From Branchiostoma belcheri (Eukaryota), in assembly GCF_001625305.1 (NCBI RefSeq), contig NW_017802379.1, forward strand, positions 4,341,479-4,405,478: 64,000 bases of DNA, read 5' to 3'. Made by a program: the position numbers and the translations under genes. Shown here piece after piece: positions 3,831 to 21,581 of the stretch; the first letter of the stretch is position 1, and every line of letters starts with the position of its first letter. The notes under the pieces were generated by a model. It was not told the origin of the DNA. It worked only from the letters and a program-made list of their open reading frames with translations, and did no database searches.

Positions 3831-3988
3831 TCATTTGTTTTGATCCATCTTCAGCCGTATCCAGTCCATGTACATGGACACCTTGGTGTACACTCCGGGA
3901 TAGTTCGGTTCACCACAGCCCCTACCCCAGGACGTGATGCCCACAAGGTACCATCTCCCATCAGCCTTTTCGCAAACCAGAGGGCCGC
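3831..3988 (-). CDS. Protease gene last exon
   Basis: Carries the GDSGGP catalytic Ser motif and SWG, ending ...[10 protein letters not shown] then TGA (stop at 3831-3833, minus). Acceptor is tgtttgtttcag|GGCGACTCG. Confidence 0.8.
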
Positions 3989-18900: not shown

Positions 18901-21581
18901 GCACCAAAAATAACCCCAAACCCAAACCTCTGCTTGGACTGGAGAGTACTGCATCGTGTGTATCATTCACAGTGCGTGGAGCCGTAATAAACCAACACAC
19001 TCTCCAAGATTTACAAATACAAATAGACCATGTATCTGTTCGTTCGTATCTTGTTTTGTTGTGATCTATACTTAACCAAGTGTGGCGAAATGCCCAATAA
19101 AGGTCGTCATTCATTCCTCTATTTTATAACAATCATCTTAAAAGTTCATGATTGTAATATTTTGAATCCGGTTGTTGGATAAATTGCAGGACTGTTGGAT
19201 AAATTGTAGGACTGTCGGGTCTAATTGGAAAGGAAAAGATGGTGCTATAATTCTACCTAGCCGTTAGGGCATCAACACTGATCGAGCAAAGGGTCTTCGC
19301 TAAACACAGCCCCTTCGCTGAGCACAGTGCGTTCGCTGAACACAGCCCCTTCGCTGAACACAGCCCCTTCGCTGAGCACAGTGCGTTCGCTGAACACAGC
19401 TCCTTCGCTGAGCACAGTACGTTCGCTGAGCACAGGACGTTCGCTGAGCACAGCGCCTTCGCTGTTGAAGTTAGCTCATTCTCTGTTGAAATTAGTCCCT
19501 TCTCTGTTGAATTTAGTTCCTTCGTTGAGCACAAATTTTGGCGTTTTGGTCCTTCGTATGGGCGTAACACACCAGCTTCGCAGGCATTACACCGAACGAC
19601 TTGTTACTCCTAACCCTTGAACATCTAACTCCAAACATTGTTTAAAGTTATCGAATGATAATACCCCTCCTGTACTTGTTGATAGCGATTTGGTTTTTTT
19701 TTACTTACGTGGGCCGCACTCTTCAGTGGACTCATCCTTGTAGTCCTTACAGTCCAGTATGTGGTCACATTTCCAGTTGTCGGACACGCAGATGACGCCG
19801 TTGGCACCCAGACAGCTGAACAATCCTTGTCCACAGTCTGTCAACATAGCAGTTAGGAGTCTTACATGCAATTCCATGTTCTCTAGTGTAGCCTTGTACA
19901 ACGTCAAACTTCGTGCGAAGAAAACTAAATCAATATAAAAAACAAATCAATATCAAAAACCAATCAATCAAGAAAGCAAGAATTAATGACAGATACGAAA
20001 CCAACCACAGTTCAGTTCGTCCCTTCCGTCCACACAGTCACGGATGCCGTCACATATCCACTTCCAGGGAACGAGGGTCTTCTCTGTTCCTATCGGTCGG
20101 CGCCGACTGTCTGCTGCCTGTCTCTTCTTGCGAGAACCAATGTCACACTCTGTTAACAAAAAAACATGAAAATAGCATGTTCTGTCGAAAATTCGTGAAA
20201 AATTCTAATCAAAATTTCCGGAAACCTTAAAAGTTGTTTCCCTTTTATTTCAACTCGTCTGCCTGTCGCAACTGAATATTATGAGCACCTTCCTTTCTGA
20301 GTACAAGTAACAGTCTTTGAGAGAATGGCCGGTCGCCATCTTGGATCAACCCACCCCACCAACATGGCGACGGTGGCTACCTAGTTTGCATAAATTGTGA
20401 CGTCACGAGCAAACATCCTATGCTGTTTGATAACATCGCACAGTACATTTATCATCAGGAAAAACTGCTCACCAAAACACATGTTCTCATCGCTGCCATC
20501 CGCACAGTCCACGATGACGTCACACTGCCACCTCCAGGGGATGCACTCGTCCCCAGACTGACAGGCCCACTGGTTGTACCCGCAGCCACCGTGAGACTTC
20601 ACATCGGGGCGGTGGGACTCCGCGCTGCCGTTAACTGAAATGGACGGAAAGAATATTAAAGACCACTTCTAATTTTTGGGGGATGTCCCAGAGATTTTTA
20701 GGAGTGGGGGCAATTTTTCGCATAGCCCATTAGATATCTTCATAGAGGCATTTTATTGACGTCATAAAGATTATCATATGAATCCCGGCGACCAGGTGTT
20801 GGCAGCTAAATTGATTAAGTAGCAGCATGTTGGCCAATTTCTGTCACTGTCATCTAACATGCATATAGCGAATATGAAAAACCTGTATAACTTTGATCAT
20901 AATTGGTGTCACAAACATTTGACAGTTTCTCCTTATAGCAAATTTTTGGTTGTTTATAACATCAATGACTTAATTTTGTATTCCTTTTCCTTAATACATA
21001 CCCAAGAAGTAAACGATTATCGTACAAGACCTTGTATAAAATGATAATATCTTGGTTCTCCAGTGTTAATTTTGCAATTATCCATTTTCGGTCTATTCAC
21101 GTAAATTTGAGCAAGATACCGAAAATGCTCCCCTCCCTCTCTATGGCCTATATCATTGCAATGGTATGTATGCACATATATGTTCATATTAACTACGATT
21201 CAGTGACATTGAGCAACTTATTCTCAAGCAGGAGAAAATAATATTGGTAATACATATTGATAAATTCTTCTTTGTTTGTAAACCCTTGATCATTCGTTGC
21301 ATAAACGAACCAAATCAAACCAAGAATATGCACTATCACGTGAGCAAGTTTGCAGAATGGTTGCTGTCCAGCCAAGGTAAATACAGGACAACATCAATAG
21401 TAGAGCAGTTTCTGCAAAAGACCAAAACAATGTTTAATAGCAAACGTGTATCTTAGAAAATACCTCTTCGAGCATTTCCAGTTCGATCCACGCTGTCAAG
21501 AGGACGAGGCGATGACAAAATGGCGGGCATAAGAGCAGACAGCAGTGCAAAAAAGACTACAAAATCCAGGAAACTAGCCAT
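3831..21581 (-). CDS. Multi-exon gene for a secreted mosaic trypsin-like serine protease: signal peptide, 4x LDL-receptor class A, thrombospondin type-1 repeat, S1 protease domain
   Basis: Exons traced on the minus strand with GT-AG splice sites and consistent phases (approximate coordinates). (1) 21464-21581: ATG plus hydrophobic signal peptide [23 protein letters not shown]. (2) 20473-20634: LDLa [36 protein letters not shown]. (3) 20016-20149: LDLa-like [20 protein letters not shown]. (4) 19709-19847: LDLa [40 protein letters not shown]. (5) ~16570-16751: LDLa [36 protein letters not shown]. (6) 16140-16376: TSP1 [24 protein letters not shown]. (7) 15572-15771: [19 protein letters not shown]...VATAAHC, the catalytic His region. 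(8) ~15068-15170: [33 protein letters not shown]. (9) 14623-14776: [15 protein letters not shown]...ICLP...[10 protein letters not shown], the catalytic Asp region. (10) 14097-14237: [12 protein letters not shown]...[19 protein letters not shown]. (11) 3831-3988: [47 protein letters not shown]...stop. The conserved CQ|GDSGGP motif is split by an intron of roughly 10 kb. Confidence 0.7.
5765..9930 (+). mobile_element. Non-LTR retrotransposon (LINE, CR1/L2-like group), apparently full-length, inside the protease last intron
   Basis: GC-rich 5' leader (~5765-6414). A single 1107-aa ORF with no interruptions. The 3' UTR has no poly-A, which is typical of CR1-type elements. Element boundaries are approximate and no target-site duplication was identified. 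Confidence 0.75.
6415..9738 (+). CDS. LINE ORF2-like polyprotein: APE-type endonuclease, reverse transcriptase, C-terminal CCHH zinc finger
   Basis: The N-terminal EEP/APE fold has WNIRTL and GDFNAR-like motifs. RT motifs are [33 protein letters not shown] and YADD (~8787-8798). The C-terminal conserved block is RWVGHVIRM...[14 protein letters not shown]. The zinc finger is [21 protein letters not shown]. The start is ATG and there are no in-frame stops. Confidence 0.85.
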   Translation: MGKGLEKVAQTLHVPPRPWAGRRARHGIPFSGRNTKTKPTDLTLACWNIRTLMDTEHSQCPERRTALVAAELCRYNIDIAALAETRLADEGSLTEEGEGYTFFWKGLPKTDRRLHGVGFAVRTELLRSTPADPQGISERLMTWRLPLRHDRYLTLISIYAPTLVASDLVKDEFYNSLDAAIRAVPPEDKLVIMGDFNARVGTSQHLWKGVLGGHSVGKCNDNGLRLLTFCAEHSLVITNSLFQQRSLHKTTWMHPRSKRWHLLDYVIVRQRDRRDVTITRAMRGANAWTDHRMVRSKVKLHTQKQRRCTARTGRLNLQALRDEKKYIELQRALEQSLPTIPDDTPPNTEALTEAWEGVASTLLASARRVLGSSKKRNRDWFNEQRPDIQTLLSEQHKAHSNVLRNPTRANRAKLTELRSHAQREIRKMKNVWWTNLAKEMQGYADCGNQQGFYSALKAAYGPTRGSHFPVRSADGTSLITDKTAILARWAEHYKQLLNRHTEVDNSIIEDIPELPTMTEMDELPTSSEVRAAVNSLKNNKAAGPDGVPGEILRAGGEPVVQCLHSLIITAWNSGCVPQQWKDSDLVSTYKKKGDRASCSNSRGISLLSCAGKVLARILLLRLINTVSEDVLPESQCGFRKDRSTTDMIFVARQIQEKCREQHQDLYMVFVDLTKAFDTVNRPLLWEVLRRFGCPPKYLAVLKSLHNGAMVRVLGGGAKSDAFPVCTGVRQGCVIAPVIFNLFLAAVMLAAKKDIRPEDCVPLTYRLDGGLFNLRRFRAPTKIQKGTILELQYADDAAVAGCTATGLQRSLTVLDNTYTRAGLSTNTGKTEVMCQGGSLTGSDTFQIKNSALNNVNSFTYLGSTLSVNCDITDEVQRRIGLASASFGRLARKVFLNRSLLVKTKVAVYRAVCLSILLYASETWTPYRHHIRTLEQFHIRCLQKILGLKWWHKVPHTEIRRRANIEPLAAILLQRQLRWVGHVIRMPENRLPRQMLYGELSAGKRTVGGQRKRFKDCLKSNLKSCGIEPQSLERLAADRNSWRQVCSTATESYTDCYNQRAETSRARRHMPAQQQGQHICEICGRVLAARIGLISHRRTHRVRETESQQ
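11762..11955. mobile_element. MITE family A, copy 1 (194 bp, near-perfect palindrome)
   Basis: Termini are TAGCCTCTACCAGGCTTCGGGAAGCGGCTGG...CCAGCCGCCTCCGGAAGCCTGGTAGAGGCTA. It is flanked by a 9-bp direct repeat, GATGCCATC on the left and GATGCCACC on the right. It lies in the protease last intron. Confidence 0.7.
13127..13155. repeat. (ATG)n microsatellite, with a poly-G run at 13082-13097
   Basis: Direct read. It explains the poly-His ORF at 13015-13209. Confidence 0.95.
14426..14572. mobile_element. MITE family A, copy 2 (147 bp, internally shorter)
   Basis: Termini are TAGCCTCTACCAGGCTTAGGAAGGCGACTGG...CCCGAAGCCTGGAAGAGGATA. Flanking 9-bp repeat is GGCTGCTAC/GGCTGCTGC. It sits about 50 bp downstream (in gene orientation) of a protease exon donor. 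Confidence 0.65.
15572..15771 (-). CDS. Protease gene exon: N-terminus of the S1 peptidase domain
   Basis: Carries the RIIGG activation-cleavage motif and the TAAHC catalytic His motif. Donor is CA|GTGAGC. Confidence 0.75.
16140..16376 (-). CDS. Protease gene exon: thrombospondin type-1 repeat preceded by a Pro/Thr-rich linker
   Basis: Translation is [72 protein letters not shown], showing the W-x2-W-x2-W and CSxTCG-like TSR signature. Acceptor is ttttag and donor is C|GTAAGT. Confidence 0.7.
16500..16575. repeat. (ACAT)n microsatellite, ~19 units
   Basis: Direct read. It abuts the 3' side of the LDLa-4 exon and may sit next to its donor site. Confidence 0.95.
17121..17834 (+). repeat. Left inverted-repeat arm of the foldback element, including the 15-bp tandem subrepeat array (~17205-17500)
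   Basis: Matches the reverse complement of 18948-19558. The ORF-track peptides with [19 protein letters not shown] periodicity are translations of the subrepeat. Confidence 0.7.
18201..18309. mobile_element. MITE family A, copy 3 (109 bp, deleted derivative) nested in the foldback element
   Basis: Termini are TAGCCTCTACCAGGCTTGGGGAGGCAGCTGG...CGCCGGCTA. It is flanked by a perfect 9-bp direct repeat GCTTTTATA on both sides. Confidence 0.65.
18948..19558 (-). repeat. Right inverted-repeat arm of the foldback element
   Basis: Reverse complement of the left arm. Its subrepeat array is at ~19290-19470. Confidence 0.7.
21464..21581 (-). CDS. Protease gene exon 1: start codon plus signal peptide
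   Basis: ATG at 21581-21579 (minus). The hydrophobic stretch [16 protein letters not shown] is followed by SPRP. The donor AGAG|GTATTT is in phase with the next LDLa exon. Confidence 0.55.

What the first reader, a model, noticed from the sequence alone, without database searches (positions are those of the whole stretch)
3831..21581. Domain-shuffled secreted serine protease: signal peptide, 4 LDLa, 1 TSP1, trypsin domain
I do not recognise this domain order from the vertebrate protease repertoire. Vertebrate complement factor I and TMPRSS proteases combine LDLa with a protease domain, properdin and C6-C9 carry TSP1, but LDLa x4 followed directly by TSP1 and a protease domain, without SRCR, CUB or a TM segment, is unusual. 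The exons are phase-1 symmetric, which is consistent with exon shuffling. It may be a lineage-specific humoral or immune-type protease. The second LDLa is degenerate ([48 protein letters not shown]) and has a basic insert.
Basis: partly seen in the sequence, partly recalled or inferred. Interest (0 to 1): 0.55.

Follow-up and report, generated by a model that had tools for sequence, protein, structure and literature searches.

The report
Amphioxus secreted LDLa–TSP1 modular serine protease
This is a real, intact amphioxus gene for a secreted trypsin-like protease with four LDL-receptor modules and one thrombospondin module; it is already in RefSeq under a misleading name and belongs to an unstudied family found in invertebrate deuterostomes but not seen in vertebrates.

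Summary
On the minus strand, 11 exons (21581 to 3831), all with GT-AG borders, splice into a 1710-nt ORF with no in-frame stop. The 569-aa product has an N-terminal hydrophobic leader, four LDLa modules (the second degenerate, with a basic RKKR insert), a Thr/Pro linker, one TSP1 repeat and a complete trypsin domain. It is 100% identical to RefSeq XP_019621150.1, "TMPRSS6-like" from Branchiostoma belcheri, so the gene model is not new.

B. lanceolatum has the same 11 exons and phases. dN/dS is 0.20, so the gene is under purifying selection.

The architecture is not amphioxus-specific. Collinear LDLa(n)-TSP1-trypsin proteins occur in a tunicate, sea stars, a crinoid and a hemichordate. No vertebrate hit combined TSP1 with a trypsin domain.

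The protease domain groups with the matriptase/enteropeptidase/TMPRSS/kallikrein type. It does not group with insect ModSP or with MASP/C1r.

The most likely mechanism is a secreted zymogen cleaved at Arg324|Ile325. The active form would be a disulfide-tethered, Arg/Lys-specific two-chain enzyme targeted by its LDLa and TSP1 stem. An immune role is untested. Interest is modest: an uncharacterised variant of a well-known kind.

The parts
21464..21581 (-). Exon 1: start codon, hydrophobic leader (residues 1-26, [26 protein letters not shown]) and the start of a Cys-free N-terminal segment. Ends in phase 1.
   Evidence: The only Kyte-Doolittle 19-residue windows above 1.6 start at residues 1-8. 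AF2 models a helix at 3-21 followed by a disordered stretch.
20473..20634 (-). Exon 2 (phase 1-1): LDLa1, a canonical 6-Cys module ([36 protein letters not shown]).
   Evidence: dN/dS 0.19.
20006..20149 (-). Exon 3 (phase 1-1): degenerate LDLa2. It has 4 Cys and a 20-25-residue basic insert holding the furin-type motif RKKR (residues 100-103). The C-terminal Ca-binding half ([16 protein letters not shown]) is kept.
   Evidence: The insert has pLDDT below 50. RKKR is kept in the three aligned amphioxus orthologues, and the half-module is shared with Styela clava, Patiria miniata and the CUB paralogue. Module dN/dS is 0.24; the insert alone is about 1.0.
19709..19837 (-). Exon 4 (phase 1-1): LDLa3, 6 Cys.
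   Evidence: dN/dS 0.09.
16617..16751 (-). Exon 5 (phase 1-1): LDLa4, 6 Cys. This is the best-conserved stem module across phyla (motif RCWxGAFxCxHxxFCxxxxWxCDxxNDCGDxSDE).
   Evidence: dN/dS 0.135.
16143..16376 (-). Exon 6 (phase 1-1): Thr/Pro-rich mucin-like linker (residues 229-255) plus the TSP1 repeat ([24 protein letters not shown]...; 6 Cys).
   Evidence: W258, W261, W264, R277, R279 and all 6 Cys are invariant across 8 family members. The linker has pLDDT below 50.
15569..15770 (-). Exon 7: activation peptide with Cys311, the cleavage site GSHR324|IIGG, and the His57-equivalent (H367, AAHC).
   Evidence: The G310-C311-G312-T313-R314 ... R324-I325 junction is invariant across phyla.
15068..15188 (-). 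Exon 8: protease domain, residues about 375-415.
14626..14776 (-). Exon 9: protease domain with the Asp102-equivalent (D421, NNDIAL) and Cys442, the Cys122-equivalent that is the partner of Cys311.
14084..14229 (-). Exon 10: protease domain including the S1-pocket Asp189-equivalent (D511). Ends ...DTCQ in phase 0.
3831..3998 (-). Exon 11: GDSGGP (Ser195-equivalent, S517) to the stop codon. It lies across a 10.1-kb intron.
   Evidence: The same CQ|GDSGGP phase-0 intron occurs in B. lanceolatum and the CUB paralogue, and approximately in Patiria miniata.

Best explanation
A functional single-copy Branchiostoma belcheri gene encodes a secreted, modular S1A (trypsin-fold) serine protease zymogen.

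Shown here:
- An intact 11-exon ORF.
- A complete catalytic triad (H367, D421, S517).
- Asp at the S1 pocket (D511), which predicts cleavage after Arg or Lys.
- A canonical Arg324|Ile325-Ile-Gly-Gly activation site.
- An unpaired pro-peptide Cys311 plus 9 Cys in the catalytic domain.
- Purifying selection on every module.
- Conservation of the whole architecture across invertebrate deuterostome phyla.

Inferred:
- The N-terminal leader is cleaved, and the protein travels the secretory pathway as a one-chain zymogen.
- A trypsin-like activator, or the enzyme itself, cuts after Arg324.
- The catalytic chain stays tethered to the stem by a Cys311-Cys442 disulfide, as in matriptase, enteropeptidase and chymotrypsin.
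- The four Ca-binding LDLa modules and the TSP1 repeat (a Trp-Arg ladder, a likely glycosaminoglycan or surface binder) dock the enzyme onto a partner protein, matrix or cell or microbial surface, so that it acts locally in an extracellular proteolytic cascade.
- The conserved RKKR in the disordered LDLa2 insert may be a proprotein-convertase site (speculative).

The physiological role is unresolved. My rough split is pericellular or matrix processing of the matriptase/enteropeptidase type about 40%, humoral defence or clotting cascade about 30%, and other roles (digestive, reproductive) about 30%.
For: - Gene model. It is identical to XP_019621150.1, and KAI8507233.1 (569 aa) falls in the same 90%-identity cluster.
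- B. lanceolatum has the same 11 exons and phases in a collinear locus.
- dN/dS is 0.20 overall: protease 0.14, LDLa3 0.09, LDLa4 0.135, LDLa1 0.19, LDLa2 0.24, TSP1 0.37.
- Domains. Catalytic and specificity residues, Cys counts and the single hydrophobic segment.
- The AF2 model gives a confident protease domain (pLDDT 80-97), folded LDLa1/3/4 and TSP1 (65-85), and disordered insert, linker and activation loop.
- The protease fold matches matriptase, TMPRSS2 and plasmin at TM 0.92-0.94.
- The closest solved sequences are plasma kallikrein, TMPRSS13, TMPRSS11D, enteropeptidase, TMPRSS6, FXI and matriptase.
- Collinear homologues: Styela clava, 37% identity over 521 residues, E=1e-105; Patiria miniata, Acanthaster planci, Anneissia japonica and Glandiceps talaboti.
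- Intron positions and phases are shared with the amphioxus CUB paralogue and approximately with Patiria miniata.
Against: - There is no transcript, protein or activity evidence. RNA-seq junction support could not be checked with these tools.
- Signal-peptide cleavage is not demonstrated. The leader has no positively charged n-region and no clean small-x-small cleavage motif, so an uncleaved anchor with a 6-residue tail is not excluded.
- The disulfide pairing, Ca binding and ligand binding are inferred from family knowledge.
- TSP_1 scores only just above Pfam's cut-off in this species (25.2 against 21.6 bits) and is missed in a whole-protein scan.
- The NJ tree has weak deep support (bootstrap 54-58%), so placement within the matriptase/enteropeptidase-type group is only approximate.
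Confidence: 0.85

Rival explanations
1. It is a functional analogue of insect modular serine proteases (ModSP, HP14, Tenebrio MSP). In this reading the apical protease of a humoral immune or clotting cascade is recruited through its LDLa array to a pattern-recognition complex, auto-activates, and then cleaves downstream zymogens.
For: - The overall plan is the same: signal peptide, 4-5 LDLa, one small disulfide-rich module, then the protease. ModSP-type proteins appear among the hits.
- In HP14 the N-terminal LDLa modules bind beta-GRP2 and the enzyme auto-activates (PMC7215089).
- TSP1 repeats occur in complement proteins (properdin, C6-C9; own knowledge).
Against: - The protease domain is not of ModSP type. 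ModSP-like proteins form a separate clade with 100% bootstrap.
- Identity to Aethina ModSP is 24% in a heavily gapped alignment, against 38-43% identity in structural alignments to enteropeptidase, TMPRSS11D/13 and plasma kallikrein.
- Sushi and Wonton modules are absent.
- There are no expression or induction data. No paper in the searchable library mentions these accessions.
Confidence: 0.2
2. It is a true orthologue of a vertebrate type II transmembrane serine protease (TMPRSS6, TMPRSS3 or matriptase), as the RefSeq names imply. It would be membrane-anchored through its N-terminal hydrophobic segment.
For: - The best vertebrate full-length hits are matriptases: 31-33% identity over 63-77% of the query, covering the LDLa array and the protease.
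- The protease fold and sequence are closest to the TTSP, kallikrein and enteropeptidase types.
- The leader lacks an obvious cleavage motif.
Against: - There is no cytoplasmic domain; only 6 residues precede the hydrophobic stretch. There is no SEA, CUB, SRCR or frizzled stem module.
- A TSP1 repeat, which no hit among vertebrate TTSPs has, sits between LDLa4 and the protease.
- Homologues in other phyla have textbook signal peptides, for example ...ISLCSGAD in Acanthaster planci and ...SLAAASGG in Glandiceps talaboti.
- RefSeq names disagree among orthologues (TMPRSS6-like, TMPRSS3-like, ST14-like, uncharacterized), which is typical when no 1:1 orthologue exists.
- No supported sister relation to ST14 or enteropeptidase appears in the tree.
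Confidence: 0.08
3. The model is a gene-prediction chimera. The LDLa/TSP1 exons and the protease exons would belong to separate transcripts, or the distant last exon would be wrongly attached.
For: - The last exon lies across a 10.1-kb intron that holds a LINE.
- One B. lanceolatum annotation (CAH1232378.1, 963 aa) uses a different first exon and misses the last exon.
- No RNA evidence was available here.
Against: - All junctions are phase-compatible GT-AG with no stop.
- The protease part has no Met or signal peptide of its own before M372, and it keeps the pro-peptide Cys311.
- The same joined architecture is predicted in three or more amphioxus genomes, and in tunicate, echinoderm and hemichordate proteins that align collinearly.
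- The TSP1-to-protease junction (E306, GCGTR, R324-I325) is invariant across phyla.
- Only one match to the Ser195 exon exists in the window.
- The CQ|GDSGGP intron is shared by the paralogue and the sea star gene.
- The 963-aa model yields a truncated Trypsin domain (profile positions 1-177 of 220) and is the poorer model.
Confidence: 0.03

Closest known systems
Vertebrate matriptase (ST14), matriptase-2 (TMPRSS6) and enteropeptidase (TMPRSS15): type II transmembrane serine proteases
   Same: - An array of LDLa modules lies N-terminal to an Arg-activated, disulfide-tethered trypsin-fold domain with Asp189.
- These are the best vertebrate hits by sequence and fold.
   Different: - It has no cytoplasmic tail, signal anchor, SEA, CUB, MAM or SRCR.
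- It has a short N-terminal leader instead.
- A mucin-like linker and a TSP1 repeat separate LDLa4 from the protease.
- No supported 1:1 orthology was found.
Insect modular serine proteases (Drosophila ModSP, Manduca HP14, Tenebrio MSP)
   Same: These are secreted proteins with 4-5 N-terminal LDLa modules, then one small Cys-rich module, then the protease. This is the closest match in overall plan, and in HP14 the LDLa array docks onto a recognition protein.
   Different: - Sushi and Wonton modules stand in place of TSP1.
- The protease domain belongs to a distinct clade (100% bootstrap; 24% identity).
- The resemblance is best read as convergent shuffling.
Complement factor I, and the TSP1/LDLa-bearing complement proteins (C6-C9, properdin)
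   Same: Factor I joins LDLa modules to a trypsin-fold protease. C6-C9 join TSP1 and LDLa. Amphioxus has C6-like TSP1-LDLa-MACPF proteins (PMC11312191).
   Different: - It has no FIMAC, SRCR or MACPF domain.
- Factor I was not among the best 60 solved-structure sequence hits.
- No link to complement was tested.
Unnamed invertebrate-deuterostome LDLa(n)-TSP1-trypsin proteins: Styela clava XP_039263081.1, Patiria miniata XP_038074677.1, Acanthaster planci XP_022102121.1, Anneissia japonica XP_033114243.1, Glandiceps talaboti XP_077983854.1; and the amphioxus CUB-LDLa-TSP1-trypsin paralogue XP_035663545.1
   Same: - The alignment is collinear over LDLa, TSP1 and protease.
- They share the half-degenerate LDLa2 (Styela clava, Patiria miniata, CUB paralogue), the LDLa4 motif, the invariant TSP1-to-GCGTR-to-R|I junction and intron positions.
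   Different: - The number of LDLa modules varies from 2 to 5.
- The basic RKKR insert and the Thr/Pro linker are amphioxus-specific.
- All are automatic predictions with no experimental characterisation.

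Membership tests
S1A chymotrypsin/trypsin-fold serine proteases (Pfam PF00089) | Full-length match to the family profile and fold | tested here: met
   Trypsin profile positions 1-220 of 220, E=6.8e-69. AF2 pLDDT is 80-97 over the domain. Foldseek TM-target is 0.92-0.94 to matriptase, TMPRSS2 and plasmin.
S1A chymotrypsin/trypsin-fold serine proteases (Pfam PF00089) | Catalytic triad His57/Asp102/Ser195 and a zymogen activation site giving a new Ile16 N-terminus | tested here: met
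   H367 (AAHC), D421 (NNDIAL), S517 (GDSGGP), R324|IIGG. D511 sits at the 189 position, which is trypsin-like. All are invariant in family alignment A4. Enzymatic activity itself was not tested.
Type II transmembrane serine proteases (matriptase/TMPRSS6/TMPRSS3) | N-terminal cytoplasmic domain followed by an uncleaved signal-anchor transmembrane helix | tested here: not met
   The hydrophobic stretch starts at residue 7, with no cytoplasmic domain. It is the only hydrophobic segment. Homologues in other phyla carry canonical signal peptides. Whether the leader is cleaved could not be computed (no SignalP) or measured.
Type II transmembrane serine proteases (matriptase/TMPRSS6/TMPRSS3) | Stem containing SEA, CUB, SRCR or frizzled modules, with LDLa directly preceding the protease (matriptase subfamily) | tested here: not met
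   Pfam finds only Ldl_recept_a, TSP_1, Trypsin and DUF1986. TSP1 and a linker lie between LDLa4 and the protease.
Type II transmembrane serine proteases (matriptase/TMPRSS6/TMPRSS3) | Protease domain nested within the TTSP clade | tested here: inconclusive
   TTSPs, enteropeptidase and plasma kallikrein are the top solved hits. The NJ tree puts the protein in a 100%-supported group with ST14, enteropeptidase, acrosin and CLIP proteases, but with no supported sister.
Insect modular serine proteases (ModSP/HP14/MSP) | Secreted protein with an N-terminal array of 4-5 LDLa modules | tested here: met
   4 LDLa stretches after an N-terminal leader.
Insect modular serine proteases (ModSP/HP14/MSP) | Sushi/CCP (and Wonton) module between the LDLa array and the protease | tested here: not met
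   No Sushi hit; TSP_1 stands in its place. ModSP-type hits do show Sushi.
Insect modular serine proteases (ModSP/HP14/MSP) | Protease domain of the ModSP clade | tested here: not met
   ModSP-like sequences form a separate clade with 100% bootstrap. Identity to Aethina ModSP is 24%.
Insect modular serine proteases (ModSP/HP14/MSP) | Auto-activation on binding a pattern-recognition complex | not testable with these tools
   This needs biochemistry. It is described for HP14 in PMC7215089.
Complement factor I | FIMAC - SRCR - LDLa x2 - protease architecture | tested here: not met
   No FIMAC or SRCR hit. Only the LDLa and protease parts are shared.
Invertebrate-deuterostome LDLa(n)-TSP1-trypsin group (unnamed) | Collinear LDLa array, one TSP1 repeat, the invariant C-x2-E-x3-GCGTR...R|I(I/V/L)(G/N)G junction, and a trypsin domain in one polypeptide | tested here: met
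   Styela clava: 37% identity over 521 residues, E=1e-105. Patiria miniata: 38% over 89% of the query.
Invertebrate-deuterostome LDLa(n)-TSP1-trypsin group (unnamed) | Shared gene structure (module exons in phase 1; introns at the TSP1|protease and CQ|GDSGGP positions) | tested here: met
   The structure is identical in B. lanceolatum. Introns are shared at alignment columns 242, 477, 549, 644 and 694 with the amphioxus CUB paralogue. In Patiria miniata they are shared approximately, from tblastn HSP ends only, because exact threading failed on that low-quality model.

The most novel reading that the evidence does not exclude
The LDLa(n)-TSP1-protease family is a protease of the deuterostome ancestor that vertebrates lost or dismantled. 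In amphioxus, tunicates, echinoderms and hemichordates it would serve as the still-missing surface-targeted initiator or regulator protease of the C3-based complement or clotting system. That would make it a functional counterpart of insect ModSP or of factor I, for which I know of no bona fide orthologue in these animals (own knowledge). The TSP1 repeat would supply properdin-like surface binding. The conserved RKKR insert would supply a convertase-controlled switch.
Probability: 0.1. Interest if true: 0.7.

Novelty: new variant of a known kind. Interest (0 to 1): 0.3.

Why it matters
The sequence is already public as an automatic prediction, so the find is not a new gene. What the analysis adds:
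- The RefSeq names (TMPRSS6-like, TMPRSS3-like, ST14-like) are misleading. The protein has a short N-terminal leader and none of the transmembrane or SEA/CUB features of those enzymes.
- It belongs to a coherent, apparently unstudied family. That family is shared by cephalochordates, tunicates, echinoderms and hemichordates, and was not seen in vertebrates.
- It is a clean example of phase-1 exon shuffling. The resulting plan converges on insect ModSP, while the catalytic domain is of the matriptase/enteropeptidase type.

If the family turned out to act in invertebrate-deuterostome humoral defence, it would fill a gap in how those cascades are initiated or regulated. Otherwise it is one more modular extracellular protease.

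Tried and rejected
- Whole-protein Pfam scan for TSP_1: no hit. The module scores above the cut-off only when scanned alone.
- Profile search with the LDLa4-TSP1-activation segment (A5): it returned only proteins under 300 aa, mostly LDLa-only or TSP1-only fragments, plus one Ptychodera flava fragment. It was uninformative for the vertebrate question.
- Exhaustive representative search: the top of the list is swamped by multi-protease 'polyserase' proteins whose domain scores add up. Only hits whose best stretch reached into the stem were followed up.
- The look-up of encoding contigs for the window's own protein and for Acanthaster planci P0008: not on record.
- Exact splice threading of Patiria miniata P0006 failed because it is a 'LOW QUALITY PROTEIN' model. 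Only approximate exon ends from tblastn were used.
- Literature: four keyword searches and an accession search found no description of this architecture or these genes. A review notes that echinoderm serine-protease systematics is unresolved (PMC10381214).
- Rfam, tRNA and RNA-fold tests on the window and on the conserved intron block were negative.
- Pseudogene was considered and rejected: intact ORF, dN/dS 0.20.
- Enteropeptidase-like specificity was considered and rejected: from my own knowledge of the enzyme, enteropeptidase has a basic 96-99 exosite, and there is no basic cluster before D421 here (sequence ...YNQYTVNND).

Full report
**1. The observation**

I read each exon border on the sequence and assembled the exons by script. 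There are 11 exons: 21581-21464, 20634-20473, 20149-20006, 19837-19709, 16751-16617, 16376-16143, 15770-15569, 15188-15068, 14776-14626, 14229-14084 and 3998-3831. Every intron begins with GT and ends with AG.

The spliced CDS is 1710 nt and encodes 569 aa with no internal stop. The five module exons (2-6) begin and end in phase 1. The phases of the introns inside the protease domain are 2, 0, 1 and 0. tblastn of the product against the whole window finds only these exons, so there is one gene and no local paralogue.

Pfam gives a full-length Trypsin domain (325-561, E=6.8e-69) and four Ldl_recept_a stretches. TSP_1 is not reported for the whole protein. It passes the gathering score when the module is scanned alone (25.2 against 21.6 bits), and it is unambiguous in relatives.

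The quoted LDLa2 peptide is the exact exon-3 product. Only profile positions 16-37 match, and it has 4 rather than 6 Cys.

**2. What it is**

The product is 100% identical over its full length to RefSeq XP_019621150.1, 'PREDICTED: transmembrane protease serine 6-like [Branchiostoma belcheri]'. The independent GenBank model KAI8507233.1 (569 aa) falls in the same 90%-identity cluster. The window is therefore amphioxus DNA, and the gene model already exists.

Orthologues are present in:
- B. lanceolatum (80% identity; named TMPRSS3-like);
- B. floridae (ST14-like) and the B. floridae x B. japonicum hybrid (78%; named uncharacterized).

I fetched the B. lanceolatum locus (L001). It is collinear with the window over about 28 kb, with the major vault protein gene upstream in both. 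Exact threading of the B. lanceolatum protein onto that locus gives the same 11 exons with the same phases.

Nei-Gojobori dN/dS between the two species is 0.20 overall:

| Region | dN/dS |
|---|---|
| Protease | 0.14 |
| LDLa3 | 0.09 |
| LDLa4 | 0.135 |
| LDLa1 | 0.19 |
| LDLa2 (whole module) | 0.24 |
| TSP1 | 0.37 |

Every module is under purifying selection, so this is not a pseudogene. The 24-codon basic insert alone is about 1.0, but its RKKR motif is retained in the three aligned amphioxus orthologues.

**3. Anatomy**

The features below come and from the AF2 model.
- Residues 1-26 are the only hydrophobic segment. AF2 models a helix at 3-21, followed by a disordered Cys-free stretch.
- LDLa1, LDLa3 and LDLa4 each have 6 Cys and the DCxDxSDE calcium cage.
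- LDLa2 keeps Cys1 and the C-terminal calcium-binding half ([16 protein letters not shown]). It replaces the middle with a basic loop, [19 protein letters not shown], which is predicted disordered (pLDDT below 50) and carries the only R-x-[KR]-R motif in the protein.
- A Thr/Pro-rich linker (229-255) precedes the TSP1 repeat. That repeat has the WxxWxxW and RxR ladder and 6 Cys.
- The activation peptide [17 protein letters not shown]|IIGG has one Cys (311), and the protease domain has 9. This is the count expected for four internal disulfides plus the Cys1-Cys122-type tether (family knowledge).
- H367, D421 and S517 form the catalytic triad. D511 occupies position 189, so P1 specificity should be Arg/Lys.
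- The protein ends 8 residues after the domain, so there is no C-terminal anchor.
- The protease domain is modelled with pLDDT 80-97. It superposes on matriptase, TMPRSS2 and plasmin at TM 0.92-0.94.

**4. Relatives**

The closest solved sequences are plasma kallikrein, TMPRSS13, TMPRSS11D, enteropeptidase, TMPRSS6, factor XI and matriptase, at 168-198 bits. The best vertebrate full-length hits are matriptases. They match through the LDLa array plus the protease at 31-33% identity over 63-77% of the query.

The same overall architecture is found only in invertebrate deuterostomes. I ran an exhaustive profile search of 1.84 billion representatives, then Pfam scans and name look-ups. These identify LDLa(n)-TSP1-Trypsin proteins in:
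- the tunicate Styela clava (577 aa; collinear, 37% identity over 521 residues, E=1e-105);
- the sea stars Patiria miniata and Acanthaster planci;
- the crinoid Anneissia japonica;
- the hemichordate Glandiceps talaboti, plus a Ptychodera flava fragment.

Amphioxus also has a CUB-LDLa-LDLa(degenerate)-TSP1-Trypsin paralogue.

Several traits are shared across phyla in the alignment:
- The half-degenerate second LDLa is shared by amphioxus, Styela clava, Patiria miniata and the CUB paralogue.
- The LDLa4 motif RCWxGAFxCxHxxFC...NDCGDxSDE is shared by amphioxus, Styela clava (partly), Patiria miniata and Anneissia japonica.
- The junction from the last TSP1 Cys through E306 and GCGTR to R324|I325 is invariant in all eight sequences.

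Intron positions and phases at the module borders and inside the protease domain are shared with the paralogue, and approximately with Patiria miniata. The architecture is therefore old, dating to the deuterostome stem, and is not an amphioxus-specific shuffle.

None of the vertebrate hits carries PF00090 together with PF00089. This is consistent with loss or remodelling in vertebrates. It is not an exhaustive proof.

**5. Placement**

I built a neighbour-joining tree of 32 protease domains with 100 bootstraps. It shows:
- the three orthologues together (100%);
- weakly, their union with the CUB paralogue (54%);
- an ambulacrarian cluster of LDLa-bearing proteases, most with TSP1 (58%);
- all of these inside a 100%-supported group with matriptase, enteropeptidase, acrosin, stubble and CLIP proteases.

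Insect ModSP-type proteins form a separate 100% clade outside that group, and MASP/C1r-like proteins also fall outside it (their own pairing has 65% support). Identity to Aethina ModSP is 24% in a gappy alignment. The resemblance to ModSP/HP14 is thus one of plan (LDLa array, then a small module, then the protease; PMC7215089) and not of descent.

[quoted passage not shown] It has no cytoplasmic tail or anchor and no SEA, CUB or SRCR module. It likewise lacks the FIMAC and SRCR of factor I. The RefSeq names are best-hit labels and disagree among orthologues.

**6. Mechanism**

Shown:
- an intact, selected gene;
- a complete catalytic apparatus;
- an Arg|Ile activation site;
- Asp189;
- a spare pro-peptide cysteine;
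- conserved stem modules.

Inferred from what is established for chymotrypsin-fold zymogens, LDLa modules and TSRs:
- The protein is secreted.
- It is activated by cleavage after Arg324.
- The catalytic chain remains disulfide-linked to the stem.
- The LDLa array (Ca-dependent binding of basic surfaces) and the TSR (glycosaminoglycan or surface binding) localise the enzyme to a partner or surface.

The conserved RKKR in a disordered loop could be a convertase site. This is speculative. The physiological pathway is unknown. I rate matriptase/enteropeptidase-like pericellular or matrix processing somewhat above a humoral defence cascade, because of the protease-domain affinities. Nothing here tests it.

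**7. Rivals**

- A prediction chimera is very unlikely. The junctions are phase-compatible. The protease part has no start codon or signal peptide of its own. The same joined protein appears in four phyla, and the junction residues are invariant.
- The 963-aa B. lanceolatum model that differs at both ends gives a truncated Trypsin domain and simply misses the distant last exon.
- True TTSP orthology and ModSP analogy are discussed in section 5.

**8. Novelty and literature**

Four keyword searches and one accession search of the full-text library found no paper describing this architecture or these genes. The complement-evolution paper that mentions LDLa and TSP1 in amphioxus deals with C6-like proteins. 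A review states that echinoderm serine-protease systematics still needs dedicated study.

The gene is therefore already public but automatically and misleadingly named. The family is uncharacterised. In kind it is a variant of the well-known modular extracellular trypsin-like proteases. Interest is modest (0.3). The most novel reading not excluded is a deuterostome-ancestral initiator or regulator protease of humoral defence that was lost in vertebrates; I give it about 10%.

**9. Limits**

- No RNA-seq, signal-peptide predictor or biochemical test was available.
- The tree is a quick NJ tree with weak deep nodes.
- The vertebrate absence rests on top-hit inspection and not on a complete architecture census.

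Noticed in passing
window 5513-9780 (ORF 6415-9738, + strand): An apparently intact non-LTR retrotransposon lies antisense in intron 10. It has a 1107-aa ORF with an AP-endonuclease domain, a reverse transcriptase domain and a C-terminal C2H2 finger. The roughly 4.3-kb block is absent from the orthologous B. lanceolatum intron, so the insertion is lineage-specific and possibly recent.
   Followed up: partly
window 17121-19558 (intron 4): A foldback-type element has inverted arms at 17121-17837 and 18949-19558. The arms are 97-99% complementary and 1.1 kb apart, and each carries 18/54-bp tandem repeats. It is absent from the B. lanceolatum intron. Its spurious ORFs ([10 protein letters not shown]...) appear on both strands.
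   Followed up: partly
window ~13200-13940 (intron 10): A single-copy conserved non-coding block is 89% identical over 740 bp to B. lanceolatum. That is higher than the exon-containing aligned blocks (71-88%). It shows no codon periodicity, its indels are not in multiples of three, it has no Rfam hit and it has no RNA-fold signal (z=0.24). It may be a cis-regulatory element.
   Followed up: partly
window 16498-16575 (intron 5): A (CATA)19.5 microsatellite, which reads (TATG)n on the gene strand, fills about a third of the 240-bp intron between the LDLa4 and TSP1 exons.
   Followed up: no
window ~26900-28578 and beyond, minus strand: The upstream neighbour in the same orientation is the 3' part of the major vault protein gene. 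This follows from collinearity (81-94% identity) with the annotated MVP gene in B. lanceolatum locus L001. The MVP-protease linkage is conserved between the two species.
   Followed up: partly
window 43433-44359, + strand: An uninterrupted 308-aa ORF matches GPHR_N (E=1.3e-22) and ABA_GPCR (E=8.2e-42). It is a Golgi pH regulator/GPR89-like protein segment, encoded by one unusually long exon or a retrocopy.
   Followed up: partly
L001 (B. lanceolatum) and public annotations: Public names for the orthologues conflict: TMPRSS6-like, TMPRSS3-like, ST14-like and uncharacterized. One B. lanceolatum model (CAH1232378.1, 963 aa) replaces the signal-peptide exon and misses the Ser195 exon, which gives a truncated protease domain. 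In Styela clava, RefSeq lists 577-, 507- and 463-aa isoforms. Skipping of symmetric phase-1 module exons could produce such isoforms, but this was not checked.
   Followed up: partly
window 22232-22486, + strand: A short ORF beginning MGSFPSKSKKKEEK... (22314-22484) has an N-terminal Met-Gly, so a myristoylation site is possible. It lies in a block that is 79% conserved with B. lanceolatum, about 730 bp upstream of the protease start codon. It could be the first exon of a divergently transcribed gene or part of the promoter region.
   Followed up: no
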